Source of the DNA: a virus
Taxonomy: Duplodnaviria > Heunggongvirae > Uroviricota > Caudoviricetes
Reading direction: 5' to 3' (one strand)
Length of the DNA stretch: 6,539 bases
Virus record (IMG/VR): IMGVR_UViG_2690316002_000006
Span: 1 to 6,539 of that record
The notes under the pieces are model-generated. The model was not told the origin of the DNA, ran no database searches, and saw only the letters and a program-made list of their open reading frames with translations. This document shows, one piece after another, positions 1,461-5,621 of this stretch (positions are counted from its first letter, which is position 1; every line of letters begins with the position of its first letter). The position numbers and the translations under genes were made by a program.

Positions 1461-1501
1461 GTAAAATCCCCGTCATATAACTTGTCACCAGAGGAAAGAA
1501 A

Positions 1502-1687
1502 ATGTCATCGAAAAACCGGACCCGCAGAACCACAACCCGCAATATCCGTTTCCCCAATCACATGATTGAACAGATCAACATCGCCCTTGAGCATAAAGGG
1601 TCCGGTAACTTTTCAGCGTGGGTTATTGAAGCCTGCAGAAGAAGGCTGTCAACAGAGCGTTCGGGTATGAATTACATAATTAAGTAA
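1502..1687 (+). CDS. Small ribbon-helix-helix-like protein (resembles YlcI/YnfO-type small prophage proteins)
   Basis: 61-aa ORF with a strong Shine-Dalgarno (GAGGAAAG, 5 nt before ATG). Basic N-terminus followed by NIRFPNHMIEQINIALEHKG...FSAWVIEACRRRL, consistent with a strand-helix-helix DNA-binding fold. The only convincing plus-strand gene in the window. Family name is from memory. Confidence 0.65.
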   Translation: MSSKNRTRRTTTRNIRFPNHMIEQINIALEHKGSGNFSAWVIEACRRRLSTERSGMNYIIK

Positions 1688-1816
1688 CATGGTGTTCACA
1701 GAACACACAGTTACCGGACACATCAGTTTTCCATTCGTCCCCCGGCAGTACAGGCTTCCCGTCTGACGGGATAGCCTGAAAAAACACAGAAAATTATTTG
1801 TTATAATTAATATAAC

Positions 1817-1957
1817 TTACTCAAAAAAAAGCGACGAGAAAATCAGCATCAACGAGCAATAAGCGCCAATACGTGATAACAAATGGCAGCCATATTTATC
1901 TGCAGTATAAGCAATGGACAGGATAACCACACCAGAAACCGTCAGCATAAAATCCAT
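1817..1957 (-). CDS. Candidate 46-aa hydrophobic micro-protein (below the ORF-track size cut-off)
   Basis: Manual translation: MDFMLTVSGVVILSIAYTADKYGCHLLSRIGAYCSLMLIFSSLFFE, with two hydrophobic segments. ATG at 1957 preceded by GGGGAAG 5 nt upstream. Lies in an AT-rich stretch; could be a chance ORF. Confidence 0.25.
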   Translation of the reverse strand: MDFMLTVSGVVILSIAYTADKYGCHLLSRIGAYCSLMLIFSSLFFE

Positions 1958-2313
1958 TTGAACTTCCCCGGACAAAATCGACTCATCTAAAGATTTACAG
2001 CTCTTTTTATTATCAATATGTTAAAAGTAAAATAAACAGATGTTCAATAATACGAATACAAAAACGTGCTGAAAATCAATGAATCCATTTCTGTGTTATC
2101 AATTAATAGTGATAAACATCCGGCTTCTTCCACCATCGCACCGGACCAGCGACCATGAGGGGACAACGCCGCGCTCCGTTAACGCGGTAAACCCCGGTGT
2201 GTATCGTTTTTGATTATCCCCGCACACTCGCGCAGAGGATTCTCCCGGTCGGGCTGCGGTCTCTGTTAATGCAGGAATACGGCGACAATACCGCGCATGA
2301 ATAATAAGGTCGC

Positions 2314-2538
2314 TCAACACACTGGCTGTAATGCAGCGGATACCATGCGGCATTTAGCGGCATTCATCGTACACTCAACGGTTAGCTCTTCATTCGTGGC
2401 ATTCACCTGAAAGGTCCTGGAGTGTAATTGCGTACATTTACCACTGAACGAACCTTCAACAAGAACACGACCACGCTGCAAAATACGGAACGGAATTGTT
2501 CCCTGAAAAGGCTTTACGGTTACCAATAATTTCTTCAT
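2314..2538 (-). CDS. Hypothetical 74-aa protein with four cysteines, immediately downstream of Rz
   Basis: ATG at 2538 preceded by GGAGA with 4-nt spacing, only 24 bp after the Rz stop. Translation MKKLLVTVKPFQGTIPFRILQRGRVLVEGSFSGKCTQLHSRTFQVNATNEELTVECTMNAAKCRMVSAALQPVC. The ORF-track version (2314..2556) starts at an upstream TTG; the ATG is preferred. No family recognised. Confidence 0.55.
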   Translation of the reverse strand: MKKLLVTVKPFQGTIPFRILQRGRVLVEGSFSGKCTQLHSRTFQVNATNEELTVECTMNAAKCRMVSAALQPVC

Positions 2539-2561
2539 GCATTCTCCGAATAACAAAAATA

Positions 2562-3020
2562 CTAGTTAATACACTGAGTGCGGATATATTCCTGAAGCAT
2601 TCTCAATGCTGCCTGGTCGCTGATGATTCCGTCTCTGATACCGAGAACGTTTCGTCCAGCAACCGGAGAGAGTTCGACGGCGGCATCATTGCCCACGCCG
2701 GAGGTGCCGGTGGCTTCACGCACGGTACCGGGGCAGGTGGCGTTGATCCGCAGGCGCTTACGACCAGCGGCAACATCAGCACGCAGAGTTTCATTTTCAG
2801 CTCTCGCATCGGCTAATTCCCTCGAGTATTTTGCATCGAGCGCAGCAACATCGCGCTGGCGCACCTGCATATCAGTAATGGTTGCGTTTGCCAGCTCCAG
2901 CTCTCTGGCTTTTTTATCGCGCTGCGCTTTGTAGGTGATGACGTTATCGCGGTAATGATTCAGCCCCAGACTAAGCGCACCACAGACCACCAGCAGAATA
3001 ACGGTAAACGCGGAAAGCAT
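2562..3020 (-). CDS. Rz: i-spanin Rz
   Basis: From internal ATG at 3020: MLSAFTVILLVVCGALSLGLNHYRDNVITYKAQRDKKARELELANATITDMQVRQRDVAALDAKY... closely parallels lambda Rz (N-terminal TM anchor, NHYRDN.ITYKAQRDK, MQ.RQRDVAALDAKY, C-terminal QCI/R). The ORF-track start at TTG 3128 adds 36 implausible residues. Confidence 0.85.
   Translation of the reverse strand: MLSAFTVILLVVCGALSLGLNHYRDNVITYKAQRDKKARELELANATITDMQVRQRDVAALDAKYSRELADARAENETLRADVAAGRKRLRINATCPGTVREATGTSGVGNDAAVELSPVAGRNVLGIRDGIISDQAALRMLQEYIRTQCIN
2603..2809 (-). CDS. Rz1: o-spanin Rz1, a lipoprotein embedded in the +1 frame of Rz
   Basis: MRELKMKLCVLMLPLVVSAC followed by a proline-rich stretch (GSTPPAPVPCVKPPAPPAWAMMPP): lipobox V-S-A-C and Pro-rich periplasmic domain as in lambda Rz1 (MLKLKMMLCVMMLPLVVVGC...). 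Lies entirely inside Rz. The true start could be the second Met (2794). Confidence 0.8.
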   Translation of the reverse strand: MRELKMKLCVLMLPLVVSACGSTPPAPVPCVKPPAPPAWAMMPPSNSLRLLDETFSVSETESSATRQH

Positions 3021-3257
3021 TCGGTTTATGCTCACCCCACCAGCCCTGCCGAAGTCAACGCCATCCAGGTTATGGAAAGAAAAAGAACAACCAGCATTAG
3101 TGAAAATGAAATACCGACGATTACACAAAGGCCCTTCGCCAGCATTATGAGTTTGTCTGACATCTTTACCCCTTAATAGCAGTAATTAACCGGGCAACCA
3201 CCCATAAAAACGGAATCAGCCAGACCAGCAAAAATTTCCAGTCCGTTTTTATCATCT

Positions 3258-3953
3258 TCATGCTGCGGTAGCTCTCCATGCAGCAAGCAGACCAGCAATC
3301 CACTGAACACCTTTTGGGGTGAATTTAACCTGCGTAAAAGCATGACCATTGCCCGCCTCGCCCGTTTTCACGCTAAACCGCCCCGCATCCAGGTGATGCG
3401 AGTAAGGCGTCATTTTTCCAGCGAGGCGATACATTATTCCGTTCTCCAACAAAAACAGCCGGAAATCGGTTTCTTTGATACCGAGTAACTTAGCAACTTC
3501 CCGGAATCCCATCAGACCAGATGCTTCAACATAGTTATCAACAAATTCAGCCTTCGGCGCTGCTATTGCCAGTTGATTTTCCAGCACTGCTTTCTGTTCA
3601 GCCAGTTTTGCCGCAAATCGCAACGCCTCAGGTAAAGTCCGGGGGATCTGAATACCATGCATCGCTTTGAGTCTTGCCAGCACAGAACGACGAACGGCCT
3701 TTGACTCCCTCATGCCAACGAGCATCATCTGGTCAAAATCCAGATCATAGTATGCCGTTCTTGTCTGGTTATTGTTTAACCGGAATTTTTTTCCGGTTCC
3801 ATCAAGCTCTAGCTCATCCTCAATTTTTGCAAGAAACTTACGCGGTTCATGAGGGACTTCTCCGGCTTCTGCCCGGGCTGGATTAATAATGTTATTCAGA
3901 AAATCCAGACTACTCATGGATATTTCATGATCGATAGAAATCATCTCTTTCAT
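3258..3953 (-). CDS. Antirepressor-like protein with a C-terminal KilAC-type domain
   Basis: 231-aa ORF, ATG at 3953 with AAGGAA Shine-Dalgarno. C-terminal region FREVAKLLGIKETDFRLFLLENGIMYRLAGKMTPYSHHLDAGRFSVKTGEAGNGHAFTQVKFTPKGVQWIAGLL matches the KilAC signature. N-terminal domain not confidently assigned. Confidence 0.65.
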   Translation of the reverse strand: MKEMISIDHEISMSSLDFLNNIINPARAEAGEVPHEPRKFLAKIEDELELDGTGKKFRLNNNQTRTAYYDLDFDQMMLVGMRESKAVRRSVLARLKAMHGIQIPRTLPEALRFAAKLAEQKAVLENQLAIAAPKAEFVDNYVEASGLMGFREVAKLLGIKETDFRLFLLENGIMYRLAGKMTPYSHHLDAGRFSVKTGEAGNGHAFTQVKFTPKGVQWIAGLLAAWRATAA

Positions 3954-4226: not shown

Positions 4227-4760
4227 TTATCTGTCGATTCCCCAGCACGCCAGAGCGCTCTCCTGGTCACGACGGGATACCTGACCATAACAGTTATTTG
4301 AGCGAATACGGCAGTCTCTGCCACCGTCCTTAATCCACCAGCGAATCGCTTCGCAGGCACCTTTTCGATCTCCTGCATTAATTCGTTTATAAAACGTCGA
4401 CGGGAAACACTTACCTGGGCCAATGTTGTAAGGACAGAATGACGCAATACCCGCTTTCTGGGGTTCAGTCAGTGGCACTTTGATGTTTTTCGCCACCCAT
4501 GCCAGCGCCTTATCACGCTCAATGGCGTTAACCCGGTCGCATTTTTCCTTCGACAACTTCATGCCCGGAACGACAGGTTTACCATCCACCAGGATGGCAC
4601 CGCGGCAGATGGTCCAGATACCCGCGCCATCACGGTATGCCGTGGTGTGGTTACCTTCCTTTTCATCCAGAAACTGGTCGAGGATTTCAGGCGCAGGCGC
4701 ACCTGCGGCAATCAGCGCCAGAACGGCAGCCGACAGGCCGTATTTGATTTTGGTGTTCAT
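4227..4760 (-). CDS. SAR endolysin (T4-lysozyme-type muramidase with signal-anchor-release N-terminus)
   Basis: 177 aa; N-terminal Gly/Ala-rich weakly hydrophobic segment YGLSAAVLALIAAGAPAP; catalytic spacing E35-x8-D44-x5-T50 (EGNHTTAYRDGAGIWT) as in T4 lysozyme and phage 21 R. Strongly resembles E. coli prophage lysozymes such as RrrQ (from memory). Confidence 0.85.
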   Translation of the reverse strand: MNTKIKYGLSAAVLALIAAGAPAPEILDQFLDEKEGNHTTAYRDGAGIWTICRGAILVDGKPVVPGMKLSKEKCDRVNAIERDKALAWVAKNIKVPLTEPQKAGIASFCPYNIGPGKCFPSTFYKRINAGDRKGACEAIRWWIKDGGRDCRIRSNNCYGQVSRRDQESALACWGIDR

Positions 4761-4810: not shown

Positions 4811-5155
4811 TCAGGCCAGCGGTGGAGTCTTCAGAGAACCAGTAATTATTCCCGGTAGTTTTCCTCTGTAGGTTATCAACACATCCTGCGCCTCTAAAAT
4901 GATGGGCCGCTTTTCCGGCAACGGACCATCCCCTTCACATAACCCGGCAGCAACATCCATGAAAAACTGCTTCGCCTGCTTTTTCGCCTCCGCTTCGTAA
5001 AACTCCAGCGTGGCACCTTCAGTACGGTCAAGACTAATCGCCACATTTGGCAACAACAGTGACGGATACCCACCAATTTCCAGTGCCACAGTAACAGTAA
5101 TCTTATCCGGGTAATTATTTATCCCTTTAACAACCAGTTCGTATTTTTTCTTCAT
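4811..5155 (-). CDS. Hypothetical 114-aa protein inserted between holin and endolysin
   Basis: ATG at 5155 lies 4 nt after the holin stop, with GGGGAGAG Shine-Dalgarno inside the holin 3' end. Soluble-looking, no signal peptide or TM segment. Same position as ydfR in the K-12 Qin prophage (from memory); function unknown. Confidence 0.6.
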   Translation of the reverse strand: MKKKYELVVKGINNYPDKITVTVALEIGGYPSLLLPNVAISLDRTEGATLEFYEAEAKKQAKQFFMDVAAGLCEGDGPLPEKRPIILEAQDVLITYRGKLPGIITGSLKTPPLA

Positions 5156-5159
5156 CGCT

Positions 5160-5366
5160 TTACTCTCCCCGCGCCGCCTTACGCTTATCTTCTTTAATCT
5201 TGAAATAAAGGTTAGTCAGATACGTCAGCAGGCCAAACAGCAGACTCCCCAGCACACCGATTGCCACCCACTGGGACGGAGAGACTTTGTCCAGCAGCTG
5301 CAGTAACCAGTATCCCGTCCCCACCGCTGACGTGGTGTATGACACACCCGTTGTGATTTTTTCCAT
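5160..5366 (-). CDS. Phage-21-type pinholin (class II holin)
   Basis: From ATG at 5366: [68 protein letters not shown], near-collinear with S21/EssQ (two TM segments, charged C-terminus ...KAARGE). The ORF-track version (to 5435, GTG start) adds 23 residues of doubtful reality. Confidence 0.8.
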
Positions 5367-5621
5367 CTGATGTATGTCTCCGTCACCGCCGACAGAAAAT
5401 GAAAGTAAAGGAAAACAAAAAGCCGCCAGTGTCACCCACTGACGGCCAACTCCGGGAGCCGTGATTATGGCATTCAGGCTCTGCTAAAAATGCCAGATAA
5501 CATTCCGACCAACCCCTGATTCAGGTTATAAATGACACAATATCTTGACAACATCCGTCACTGTCTGTCAGAAAATGTACTGCCAAATATAAGTATCATG
5601 TGAAGTACATCTACCCGTTTT

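What the first reader, a model, noticed from the sequence alone, without database searches (positions are those of the whole stretch)
2314..2538. 74-aa four-cysteine protein translationally downstream of the spanins
It starts 24 bp after the Rz stop with a good GGAGA Shine-Dalgarno, so it is probably co-expressed with the lysis genes. Lambda has the oppositely oriented bor at this position; this protein is not Bor-like (no lipobox). Cysteines at positions 35, 56, 63 and 74 do not form a CxxC zinc ribbon. Function unknown; lysis-timed expression suggests a role at or after lysis, or a moron.
Basis: partly seen in the sequence, partly recalled or inferred. Interest (0 to 1): 0.4.

Follow-up and report, generated by a model that had tools for sequence, protein, structure and literature searches.

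The report
Small orphan gene after phage spanins
This is a real but uncharacterised 74-residue phage protein that fills the slot after the lysis genes where phage lambda carries bor; it is a lone copy of what is normally a two-gene accessory module, and its function remains unknown.

Summary
On the minus strand an ORF runs from ATG 2538 to a stop at 2314-2316. It starts 23 nt after the Rz stop, with GGAGA 4 nt upstream, and has Cys at 35, 56, 63 and 74.

It is a genuine gene. RefSeq annotates it as a hypothetical protein. It occurs in 1280 of 5426 complete E. coli genomes, shows dN/dS of about 0.3 in frame against about 1 out of frame, and gives a confident all-beta AlphaFold model (pLDDT 90.5). 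It belongs to PHROG 2571 (function unknown) and has no Pfam, NCBIfam, PADLOC or significant structural match.

The cysteines are not a family feature. Close relatives have C35-x-x-C38, and distant ones have no conserved Cys.

The gene has no signal peptide, lipobox or TM segment. Most phages with a similar lysis region lack it.

It fills the cargo slot between Rz and a conserved lambdoid right-end element, where a lambda-like phage carries bor.

Across Enterobacterales the family is normally followed by a ~68-aa partner gene (PHROG 4280): 65 of 69 partner-anchored loci have a family member directly upstream. The pair usually sits between the lysis and terminase genes. The STEC clade seen here has lost the partner, has a different C-terminus and has become basic (pI 9.7 against about 6).

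Most likely it is a late-expressed soluble binding protein, not a lysis effector. Interest is modest.

The parts
2314..2538 (-). 74-aa CDS (PHROG 2571 family; RefSeq WP_000735655.1, hypothetical protein); predicted soluble all-beta sandwich
2543..2547 (-). Shine-Dalgarno GGAGA, 4 nt before the ATG; a GGAG-type SD is conserved in all relatives examined
2562..3035 (-). Rz i-spanin (Pfam Phage_lysis, 2.9e-39), stop TAG 2564-2562. The start is uncertain: GTG 3035, which overlaps the TGA of the preceding small TM ORF, or ATG 3020. The RefSeq homologue starts at the equivalent of 3029.
2603..2809 (-). Rz1 o-spanin ORF embedded in Rz (lipobox ...LVVSAC)
   Evidence: translation; Rz1 embedded in Rz is established lambda biology
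2090..2313 (-). Conserved, unannotated lambdoid right-end element that forms the downstream edge of the cargo slot. It is matched in 398 phage records, and in Lambda_ev203 it lies just after bor.

Best explanation
The ORF is a genuine protein-coding gene. It is carried as cargo in the variable slot between the spanin genes and a conserved right-end element of lambdoid prophages, the slot that holds bor in a lambda-like phage. It has no detected promoter of its own, so it should be transcribed with the Q-dependent late operon and translated from its own strong SD just behind Rz (inferred from sequence, not shown). The product is a small, soluble, cytoplasmic beta-sandwich with no membrane-targeting feature. 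It is therefore an accessory protein, not a holin, endolysin or spanin-type lysis effector. In the wider family this domain is almost always paired with a ~68-aa partner protein (PHROG 4280) encoded 31-75 nt downstream, or else carries a variable C-terminal tail. This suggests a binding or adaptor domain that works together with a second component (inferred). The STEC clade in this window is a derived solo form: the partner is deleted, the C-terminal 18 residues are replaced, and five acidic residues are changed to amide or neutral residues, which raises the pI from about 6 to 9.7. The solo form is still under purifying selection. My best guess at mechanism is that, late in infection, it binds a host or phage macromolecule in the cytoplasm, and that the target differs from that of the paired ancestors. 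The target is unknown.
For: Gene is real: RefSeq CDS; present in 1280 of 5426 E. coli genomes, median 2 copies; conserved SD; dN/dS 0.30 in frame against about 1 out of frame; pN/pS 0.36 within the clade, p = 0.015; 34 of the 36 protein variants recovered from about 200 copies in the fetched loci are 68-89 aa and two are longer at the 3' end, 89 and 108 aa. Fold: AF2 pLDDT 90.5, six strands and one short helix; the 81-aa subfamily, modelled separately, gives the same strand order with one extra short strand (pLDDT 83.8). Soluble: highest KD19 0.76. Not a known family: no Pfam, NCBIfam or PADLOC hit; PHROG 2571, unknown function, 2.8e-28. Dispensable for lysis: the surrounding lysis region matches 345 phage records, the protein only 28. 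Slot: the element downstream of the gene is in 398 phage records, and bor lies between Rz and it in Lambda_ev203. Independent of lysis and packaging type: it occurs with four holin families, three endolysin types and four terminase types. Pair: 65 of 69 partner-anchored loci have a family member directly upstream. In the fetched loci no window-clade allele has the partner; nearly all alleles ending ...ATLLPVS/Y do. Charge shift. Variable C-terminal tails.
Confidence: 0.55

Rival explanations
1. It is a cytoplasmic regulator or accessory factor of lysis, for example one that modulates holin triggering or spanin function, as small soluble proteins such as T4 RIII do for their holin.
For: It lies immediately behind Rz with a 23-nt gap, and in the sister clade the ATG overlaps the Rz stop. 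The family is nearly always inside or at the end of the lysis cassette.
Against: The family co-occurs with unrelated holin, endolysin and spanin families, so no specific lysis partner is conserved. Most phages with a similar lysis region lack it. It has no membrane association. One member sits in an early region and one directly after Q, before the holin.
Confidence: 0.13
2. It acts outside the cell after lysis, as Stx toxin and the NanS-p esterase of the same phages do, as a small lectin- or CBM-like glycan binder.
Confidence: 0.07
3. It is a virion-assembly or DNA-packaging accessory, for example a decoration or Ig-like add-on, or a helper of the small terminase encoded just downstream.
Against: It occurs with four unrelated small-terminase types and with both lambda-like and HK97-like head modules, and it is absent from most phages with the same modules. 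In this window it is separated from terS by about 1.5 kb that includes an opposite-strand gene.
Confidence: 0.08
4. It is a functionless leftover of the two-gene module, still open only because the deletion that removed the partner is recent.
For: The partner is lost in the whole clade. Non-synonymous changes exceed synonymous ones between the two solo alleles. The C-terminus has been replaced.
Against: The clade is widespread and multi-copy. All window-clade variants recovered are full-length, and the only frameshifted copy (108 aa) is in the sister clade. Polymorphism within the clade shows purifying selection (pN/pS 0.36, p = 0.015).
Confidence: 0.1

Closest known systems
Bor (lambda lipoprotein gene between Rz and the right end)
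   Same: It occupies the same cargo slot, between the Rz stop and the conserved right-end element. Both are small non-essential accessory genes of lambdoid phages.
   Different: Bor is on the opposite strand, has its own expression in lysogens, and is an outer-membrane lipoprotein with a signal peptide and lipobox. This gene is co-oriented with the late genes, has no detected promoter, signal or lipobox, and shows no sequence similarity to Bor.
PHROG 2571 / PHROG 4280 gene pair (both 'unknown function')
   Same: The window protein is a clear member of PHROG 2571 (2.8e-28).
   Different: The window clade lacks the PHROG 4280 partner that follows most members. It also has a different C-terminal 18 residues and a basic instead of acidic or neutral charge.
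YdfR / DUF1327 (small soluble protein embedded in lambdoid lysis cassettes; window 4811-5155)
   Same: Both are small, soluble, uncharacterised and embedded in the same lysis cassette. Both consist of an N-terminal domain that occurs alone or with variable C-terminal tails. One family member (P0068) carries a tail 73% identical to that of a long DUF1327 protein. K-12 YdfR was reported to bind the catalytic half of RNase E (PMC13232886), which shows that such cassette-embedded proteins can target host factors unrelated to the envelope.
   Different: There is no detectable homology between the two N-terminal domains. No interaction data exist for this family.
Phage beta-sandwich accessory domains (Ig-like, CBM-like)
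   Same: A small all-beta sandwich of 6-7 strands.
   Different: There is no significant sequence or structure match to any Ig-like, HYR, Big_2, FN3 or CBM family. It is a free-standing cytoplasmic protein, not a domain of a virion protein.

Membership tests
PHROG 2571 (unknown function) | Significant match to the family profile over the whole domain | tested here: met
   hmmscan E 2.8e-28, residues 1-73. Distant relatives from Citrobacter, Edwardsiella, Salmonella and Yersinia hit the same profile region.
PHROG 2571 + PHROG 4280 two-gene module | A ~68-aa partner gene 31-75 nt downstream on the same strand | tested here: not met
   tblastn with three partner sequences finds nothing in the window. 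No window-clade allele in the fetched loci has it.
Bor lipoprotein | Signal peptide with lipobox Cys; opposite orientation to the late genes; similarity to the Bor family | tested here: not met
   The first Cys is residue 35, preceded by SGK. Highest KD19 is 0.76. The gene is on the same strand as Rz. No Pfam hit.
Zinc ribbon / CxxC metal site | Two CxxC (or CxxC/CxxH) knuckles conserved in the family | tested here: not met
   The window has CTQL at 35-38. Close relatives have one CTEC plus C56. The wider family has no conserved Cys.
Lysis effectors (holin, endolysin, i-/o-spanin) | TM segment(s), SAR or signal sequence or lipobox, or a muralytic domain | tested here: not met
   No hydrophobic segment. 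No Pfam or NCBIfam domain. The model is an all-beta soluble protein.
Classical moron | Own promoter and terminator; expression from the repressed prophage | tested here: inconclusive
   The consensus scan finds no minus-strand promoter-like site between 2539 and 2650 and no terminator after the gene. This is a crude scan, and there is no expression data.
Known anti-phage defence proteins | Match to a PADLOC model | tested here: not met
   No hit at E of 1 or less.
HYR / Ig-like repeats | Domain-length profile match | tested here: not met
   The hits to a 25-repeat HYR_4C protein and to a cystatin-repeat protein are 2-8 bits per repeat over about 25-33 residues, which is motif-level similarity only.
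DUF1327 / YdfR | Homology of the N-terminal domain | tested here: not met
   BLASTP gives no alignment. hhalign probability is 0.2%.

The most novel reading that the evidence does not exclude
PHROG 2571 plus PHROG 4280 is an uncharacterised two-protein module of the late operon of enterobacterial temperate phages, for instance a counter-defence or host-takeover complex. The STEC clade has lost the partner and neofunctionalised through an acidic-to-basic surface change, so that it now binds a new target, possibly an acidic protein or a nucleic acid.
Probability: 0.25. Interest if true: 0.55.

Novelty: new member of a known kind. Interest (0 to 1): 0.3.

Why it matters
The gene is carried, often in several copies, by about a quarter of complete E. 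coli genomes, largely Stx-type prophages. It would be made in bulk at the same time as Shiga toxin and the lysis proteins. It belongs to a conserved two-gene module that nobody has studied. Knowing what the module does would fill in one of the recurrent unknowns at the lysis-packaging junction of lambdoid phages.

Tried and rejected
- Pfam, NCBIfam and PADLOC scans gave no hit.
- A profile search of PDB sequences gave only a 13-bit chance hit.
- The HYR_4C and cystatin repeat hits from the 1.84-billion-protein profile search were examined and rejected as motif-level similarity summed over repeats.
- I tested whether the C-terminal tail of the 145-aa long forms is a fused partner (Rosetta stone). 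hhalign probability was 0.9%, so this was rejected.
- I tested homology to the neighbouring DUF1327/YdfR domain. This was rejected.
- Two scans of species-representative genomes found no member.
- Rfam on the whole window gave nothing. Folding the conserved downstream element gave z = -0.24, so there is no sign of structured RNA.
- Literature searches by accession, PHROG id and lysis-cassette terms found nothing on this family.
- The first script failed on a file name.

Full report
**Observation.** The finding's coordinates are right, but the gene is on the minus strand.
- The ORF runs from ATG 2538-2536 to TGA 2316-2314 and encodes 74 residues with Cys at 35, 56, 63 and 74.
- The Rz stop codon (TAG) is at 2564-2562, which leaves 23 intergenic bases.
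- GGAGA lies at 2547-2543, four bases before the ATG.
- There is no CxxC in this copy and no lipobox. No stretch is hydrophobic enough for a signal peptide or TM helix: the highest 19-residue Kyte-Doolittle mean is 0.76.

**Surroundings.** The window is the late region of a lambdoid STEC prophage, read on the minus strand. The gene order is:
1. a nanS-p-like gene end
2. class II holin (5160-5435)
3. DUF1327/YdfR (4811-5155)
4. lysozyme (4227-4760)
5. a KilAC antirepressor (3258-3953)
6. a 43-48-aa TM ORF
7. Rz with embedded Rz1
8. the 74-aa gene
9. about 340 nt without a called gene
10. a 46-aa hydrophobic ORF in an AT-rich island
11. ynfO/DUF3950, on the opposite strand
12. an HNH endonuclease
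13. the small terminase

No promoter-like site lies on the minus strand between the Rz stop and the gene or in the last 90 nt of Rz. No terminator-like site lies between them or after the gene. Reading the gene as part of the Q-dependent late transcript is therefore an inference from layout, not a demonstration.

**Is it a gene?** Yes, on several independent lines.
- RefSeq calls it WP_000735655.1, hypothetical protein.
- The 351-nt stretch around it is found in 1280 of 5426 complete E. coli genomes, with a median of two copies and a maximum of seven.
- Relatives down to 56% identity occur in E. coli and Salmonella.
- All ten relatives whose upstream DNA I read have GGAG 4-6 nt before the start.
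- Over the first 56 codons, pairwise Nei-Gojobori dN/dS has a median of 0.30 in frame, against 1.04 and 0.89 in the two other frames.
- Within the window's own clade there are 11 synonymous and 13 non-synonymous distinct polymorphisms. This gives pN/pS of 0.36 and differs from neutrality at p = 0.015.
- Among the copies in the fetched loci, 34 of 36 protein variants are 68-89 aa. One further variant is 89 aa through a different 3' end, and one copy in the sister clade is frameshifted to 108 aa.

**What the protein looks like.**
- AlphaFold2 on 23 close relatives gives pLDDT 90.5 and pTM 0.76. The model has six strands (2-8, 11-21, 24-35, 39-45, 52-55, 66-71) and a short helix at 60-63.
- A separate model of the 81-aa subfamily, which is about 30% identical, gives the same strand order with one extra short strand (pLDDT 83.8).
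- Foldseek against the PDB and BFVD finds nothing below E 0.07.
- So the fold is a small generic beta-sandwich with no specific assignment.
- Pfam, NCBIfam and PADLOC give nothing. The one family hit is PHROG 2571, of unknown function.

**The cysteines.**
- Among close relatives only C35 is invariant and C56 nearly so. C63 and C74 belong to one type of C-terminus.
- Most relatives read C35-T-E-C38 where the window reads CTQL.
- In the wider family none of these positions is a conserved Cys. That family was recovered by a profile search of 1.84 billion representatives and by a second word-indexed search. The near-invariant positions there are F17, Q21, G33, K34, Y43 (F in the window), V45 and A68.
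- 'Four-cysteine protein' therefore describes this copy correctly but does not characterise the family.
- The wider family spans prophages of Citrobacter, Enterobacter, Cedecea, Salmonella, Yersinia, Xenorhabdus and Edwardsiella. It was not found in the species-representative genomes.

**Where it sits.**
- The 224 nt just downstream of the gene (2090-2313) is a widespread, mostly unannotated lambdoid element, matched in 398 phage records.
- In the lambda-like phage Lambda_ev203 this element lies about 400-560 nt from the right genome end, and bor (opposite strand) fills the space between the Rz stop and the element.
- The 74-aa gene with its SD fills the same space in the window.
- The same region of the window (1500-3200) matches 345 phage records, but the protein is encoded in only 28. 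Most phages with a similar lysis region do without it.
- The family keeps the same strand as the late genes and occurs with unrelated lysis and packaging modules: holins (Phage_holin_2_1, 2_3, 3_1, and 8 plus 3_7), endolysins (GH24, M15, GH19, GH108) and small terminases (Terminase_2 plus HNH, Terminase_4 plus HNH, Nu1, DUF1441).
- One Salmonella diarizonae prophage has it directly after Q, before the holin. That is the position stx occupies in Stx phages.
- One Yersinia prophage has it in the early region.

**The partner gene.**
- In E. coli, Salmonella, Citrobacter and Edwardsiella loci the gene is followed after 40-61 nt by a ~68-aa gene, MFVE..GWV.GW.VVR..PWHL.GVYAT...YEVRYGSH.LGSDDFIS. 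This is PHROG 4280, also of unknown function.
- I tested the link in reverse by searching viral contigs with the partner alone. Of 70 loci, 69 have upstream sequence, and 65 of these carry a PHROG 2571 family ORF directly upstream with gaps of 31-75 nt. These include members only about 25-35% identical to the window protein.
- In these loci, recognisable lysis genes lie upstream on the same strand in 51 of 70, and terminase or HNH genes lie downstream in 44 of 70.
- This is a conserved two-gene module whose home is the lysis-packaging junction.
- The window has no trace of the partner, and no window-clade allele in the fetched loci has one. Nearly all alleles ending ...ATLLPVS/Y do have it.
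- The Salmonella locus still carries the partner and about 700 further bases between the gene and the right-end element. The window clade therefore looks like a deletion or recombination derivative.
- Other members lack the partner but carry C-terminal extensions of several unrelated kinds. One of these tails is 73% identical to the tail of a long DUF1327/YdfR protein. The tail of the 145-aa forms is not a fused partner.

**What changed in the solo clade.**
- The C-terminal 18 residues differ (..TMNAAKCRMVSAALQPVC against ..DLNANMAGIVSATLLPVS). This brings in C63 and C74, while C38 is lost.
- Five acidic residues are replaced (E37Q, E44Q, D46N, D49N, D57T). The pI is 9.7 (net +5.6), against 5.7-6.2 in the paired E. 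coli and Salmonella clades and 4.9 in the 81-aa clade.
- Between the window allele and its sister solo allele there are 12-16 non-synonymous and only 2-3 synonymous differences. That is too few events for a formal test. It is compatible with either adaptation or a burst of relaxed constraint.

**Mechanism.** Shown:
- It is a real gene.
- The protein is a soluble beta-sandwich.
- It sits in a cargo slot.
- It is dispensable in relatives.
- It is half of a conserved pair.
- The solo clade is derived in charge and C-terminus and is still under purifying selection.

Inferred:
- It is expressed late with the lysis genes.
- It acts by binding something in the cytoplasm.
- The paired forms act as a complex.
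- The solo form has a changed target.

I put 0.55 on this package. The rivals and their weights are:
- lysis regulator, 0.13
- decaying remnant, 0.10
- virion or packaging accessory, 0.08
- post-lysis extracellular glycan binder, 0.07

The rest is unassigned. A useful parallel is the neighbouring YdfR family. It is also a small soluble protein embedded in lambdoid lysis cassettes, and its K-12 member was recently reported to bind the catalytic half of RNase E and possibly RNA (PMC13232886). The two N-terminal domains are not homologous, so this is an analogy only.

**Novelty and verdict.** The ORF is already annotated and the family is already catalogued, both without function, and I found no paper on it. 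It fits a known kind, small accessory cargo at a module junction of a lambdoid phage. What this work adds is the conserved partnership with PHROG 4280 and the derived, basic, solo state of the very common STEC clade. Interest is modest at 0.3: the gene is real, widespread and unexplained, but nothing about it would surprise a phage biologist.

Noticed in passing
window 1817-1957 (-), within the AT-rich island 1780-2100: A 46-aa very hydrophobic ORF (MDFMLTVSGVVILSIAYTADKYGCHLLSRIGAYCSLMLIFSSLFFE; GRAVY 1.11). RefSeq annotates it as hypothetical WP_000347013.1. It lies in a 32-33% GC stretch, with a promoter-like site on its strand at 2075->2047 and a hairpin at 1706-1692 shared with the convergent ynfO. 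It has no Pfam, PHROG, NCBIfam or PADLOC hit. It looks like a separate moron, possibly a small membrane peptide. In the sister clade (L088) a TonB_C-domain gene lies between the 74-aa gene and ynfO instead.
   Followed up: partly
window 2090-2313: A 54-59% GC, unannotated element that is conserved in 398 phage records, including lambda-like phages where it lies near the right genome end. Part of it (2188-2297) is 87% identical to a Salmonella prophage, whereas the adjacent coding region is about 78% identical. It has no Rfam hit and no unusual RNA fold (z = -0.24). Its function is unknown.
   Followed up: partly
window 4811-5155 (-) and related loci: The DUF1327/YdfR gene lies between holin and endolysin. 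In related prophages the same N-terminal domain carries C-terminal extensions that bring the protein from 114 up to 385 aa. A 2026 paper reports that K-12 YdfR binds the RNase E catalytic domain and co-purifies with RNA (PMC13232886).
   Followed up: partly
window 3032-3178 (-) and 3258-3953 (-): The lysis cassette is interrupted between endolysin and Rz by a KilAC-domain antirepressor gene and a 43-48-aa single-TM ORF (PHROG 4906). The TGA of the TM ORF overlaps a GTG that may be the Rz start. The codon at the position where RefSeq starts the homologous Rz reads ATA in this window.
   Followed up: no
window 2314-2538 vs L088 5001-5225: The two partner-less alleles of the 74-aa gene differ by 12-16 non-synonymous but only 2-3 synonymous changes. 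Over the first 168 nt none of the 13 differences is at a third codon position. This may reflect diversifying selection or a relaxed burst. The events are too few to decide.
   Followed up: partly
L225 6452-7420 (and L226-L240): In the clade with 146-aa long forms, a 322-aa transposase-like ORF (my reading of its sequence, not scanned against any family library) lies on the opposite strand immediately after the gene. The C-terminus of the gene differs there from the uninterrupted homologue P0099, which suggests the insertion truncated it.
   Followed up: no
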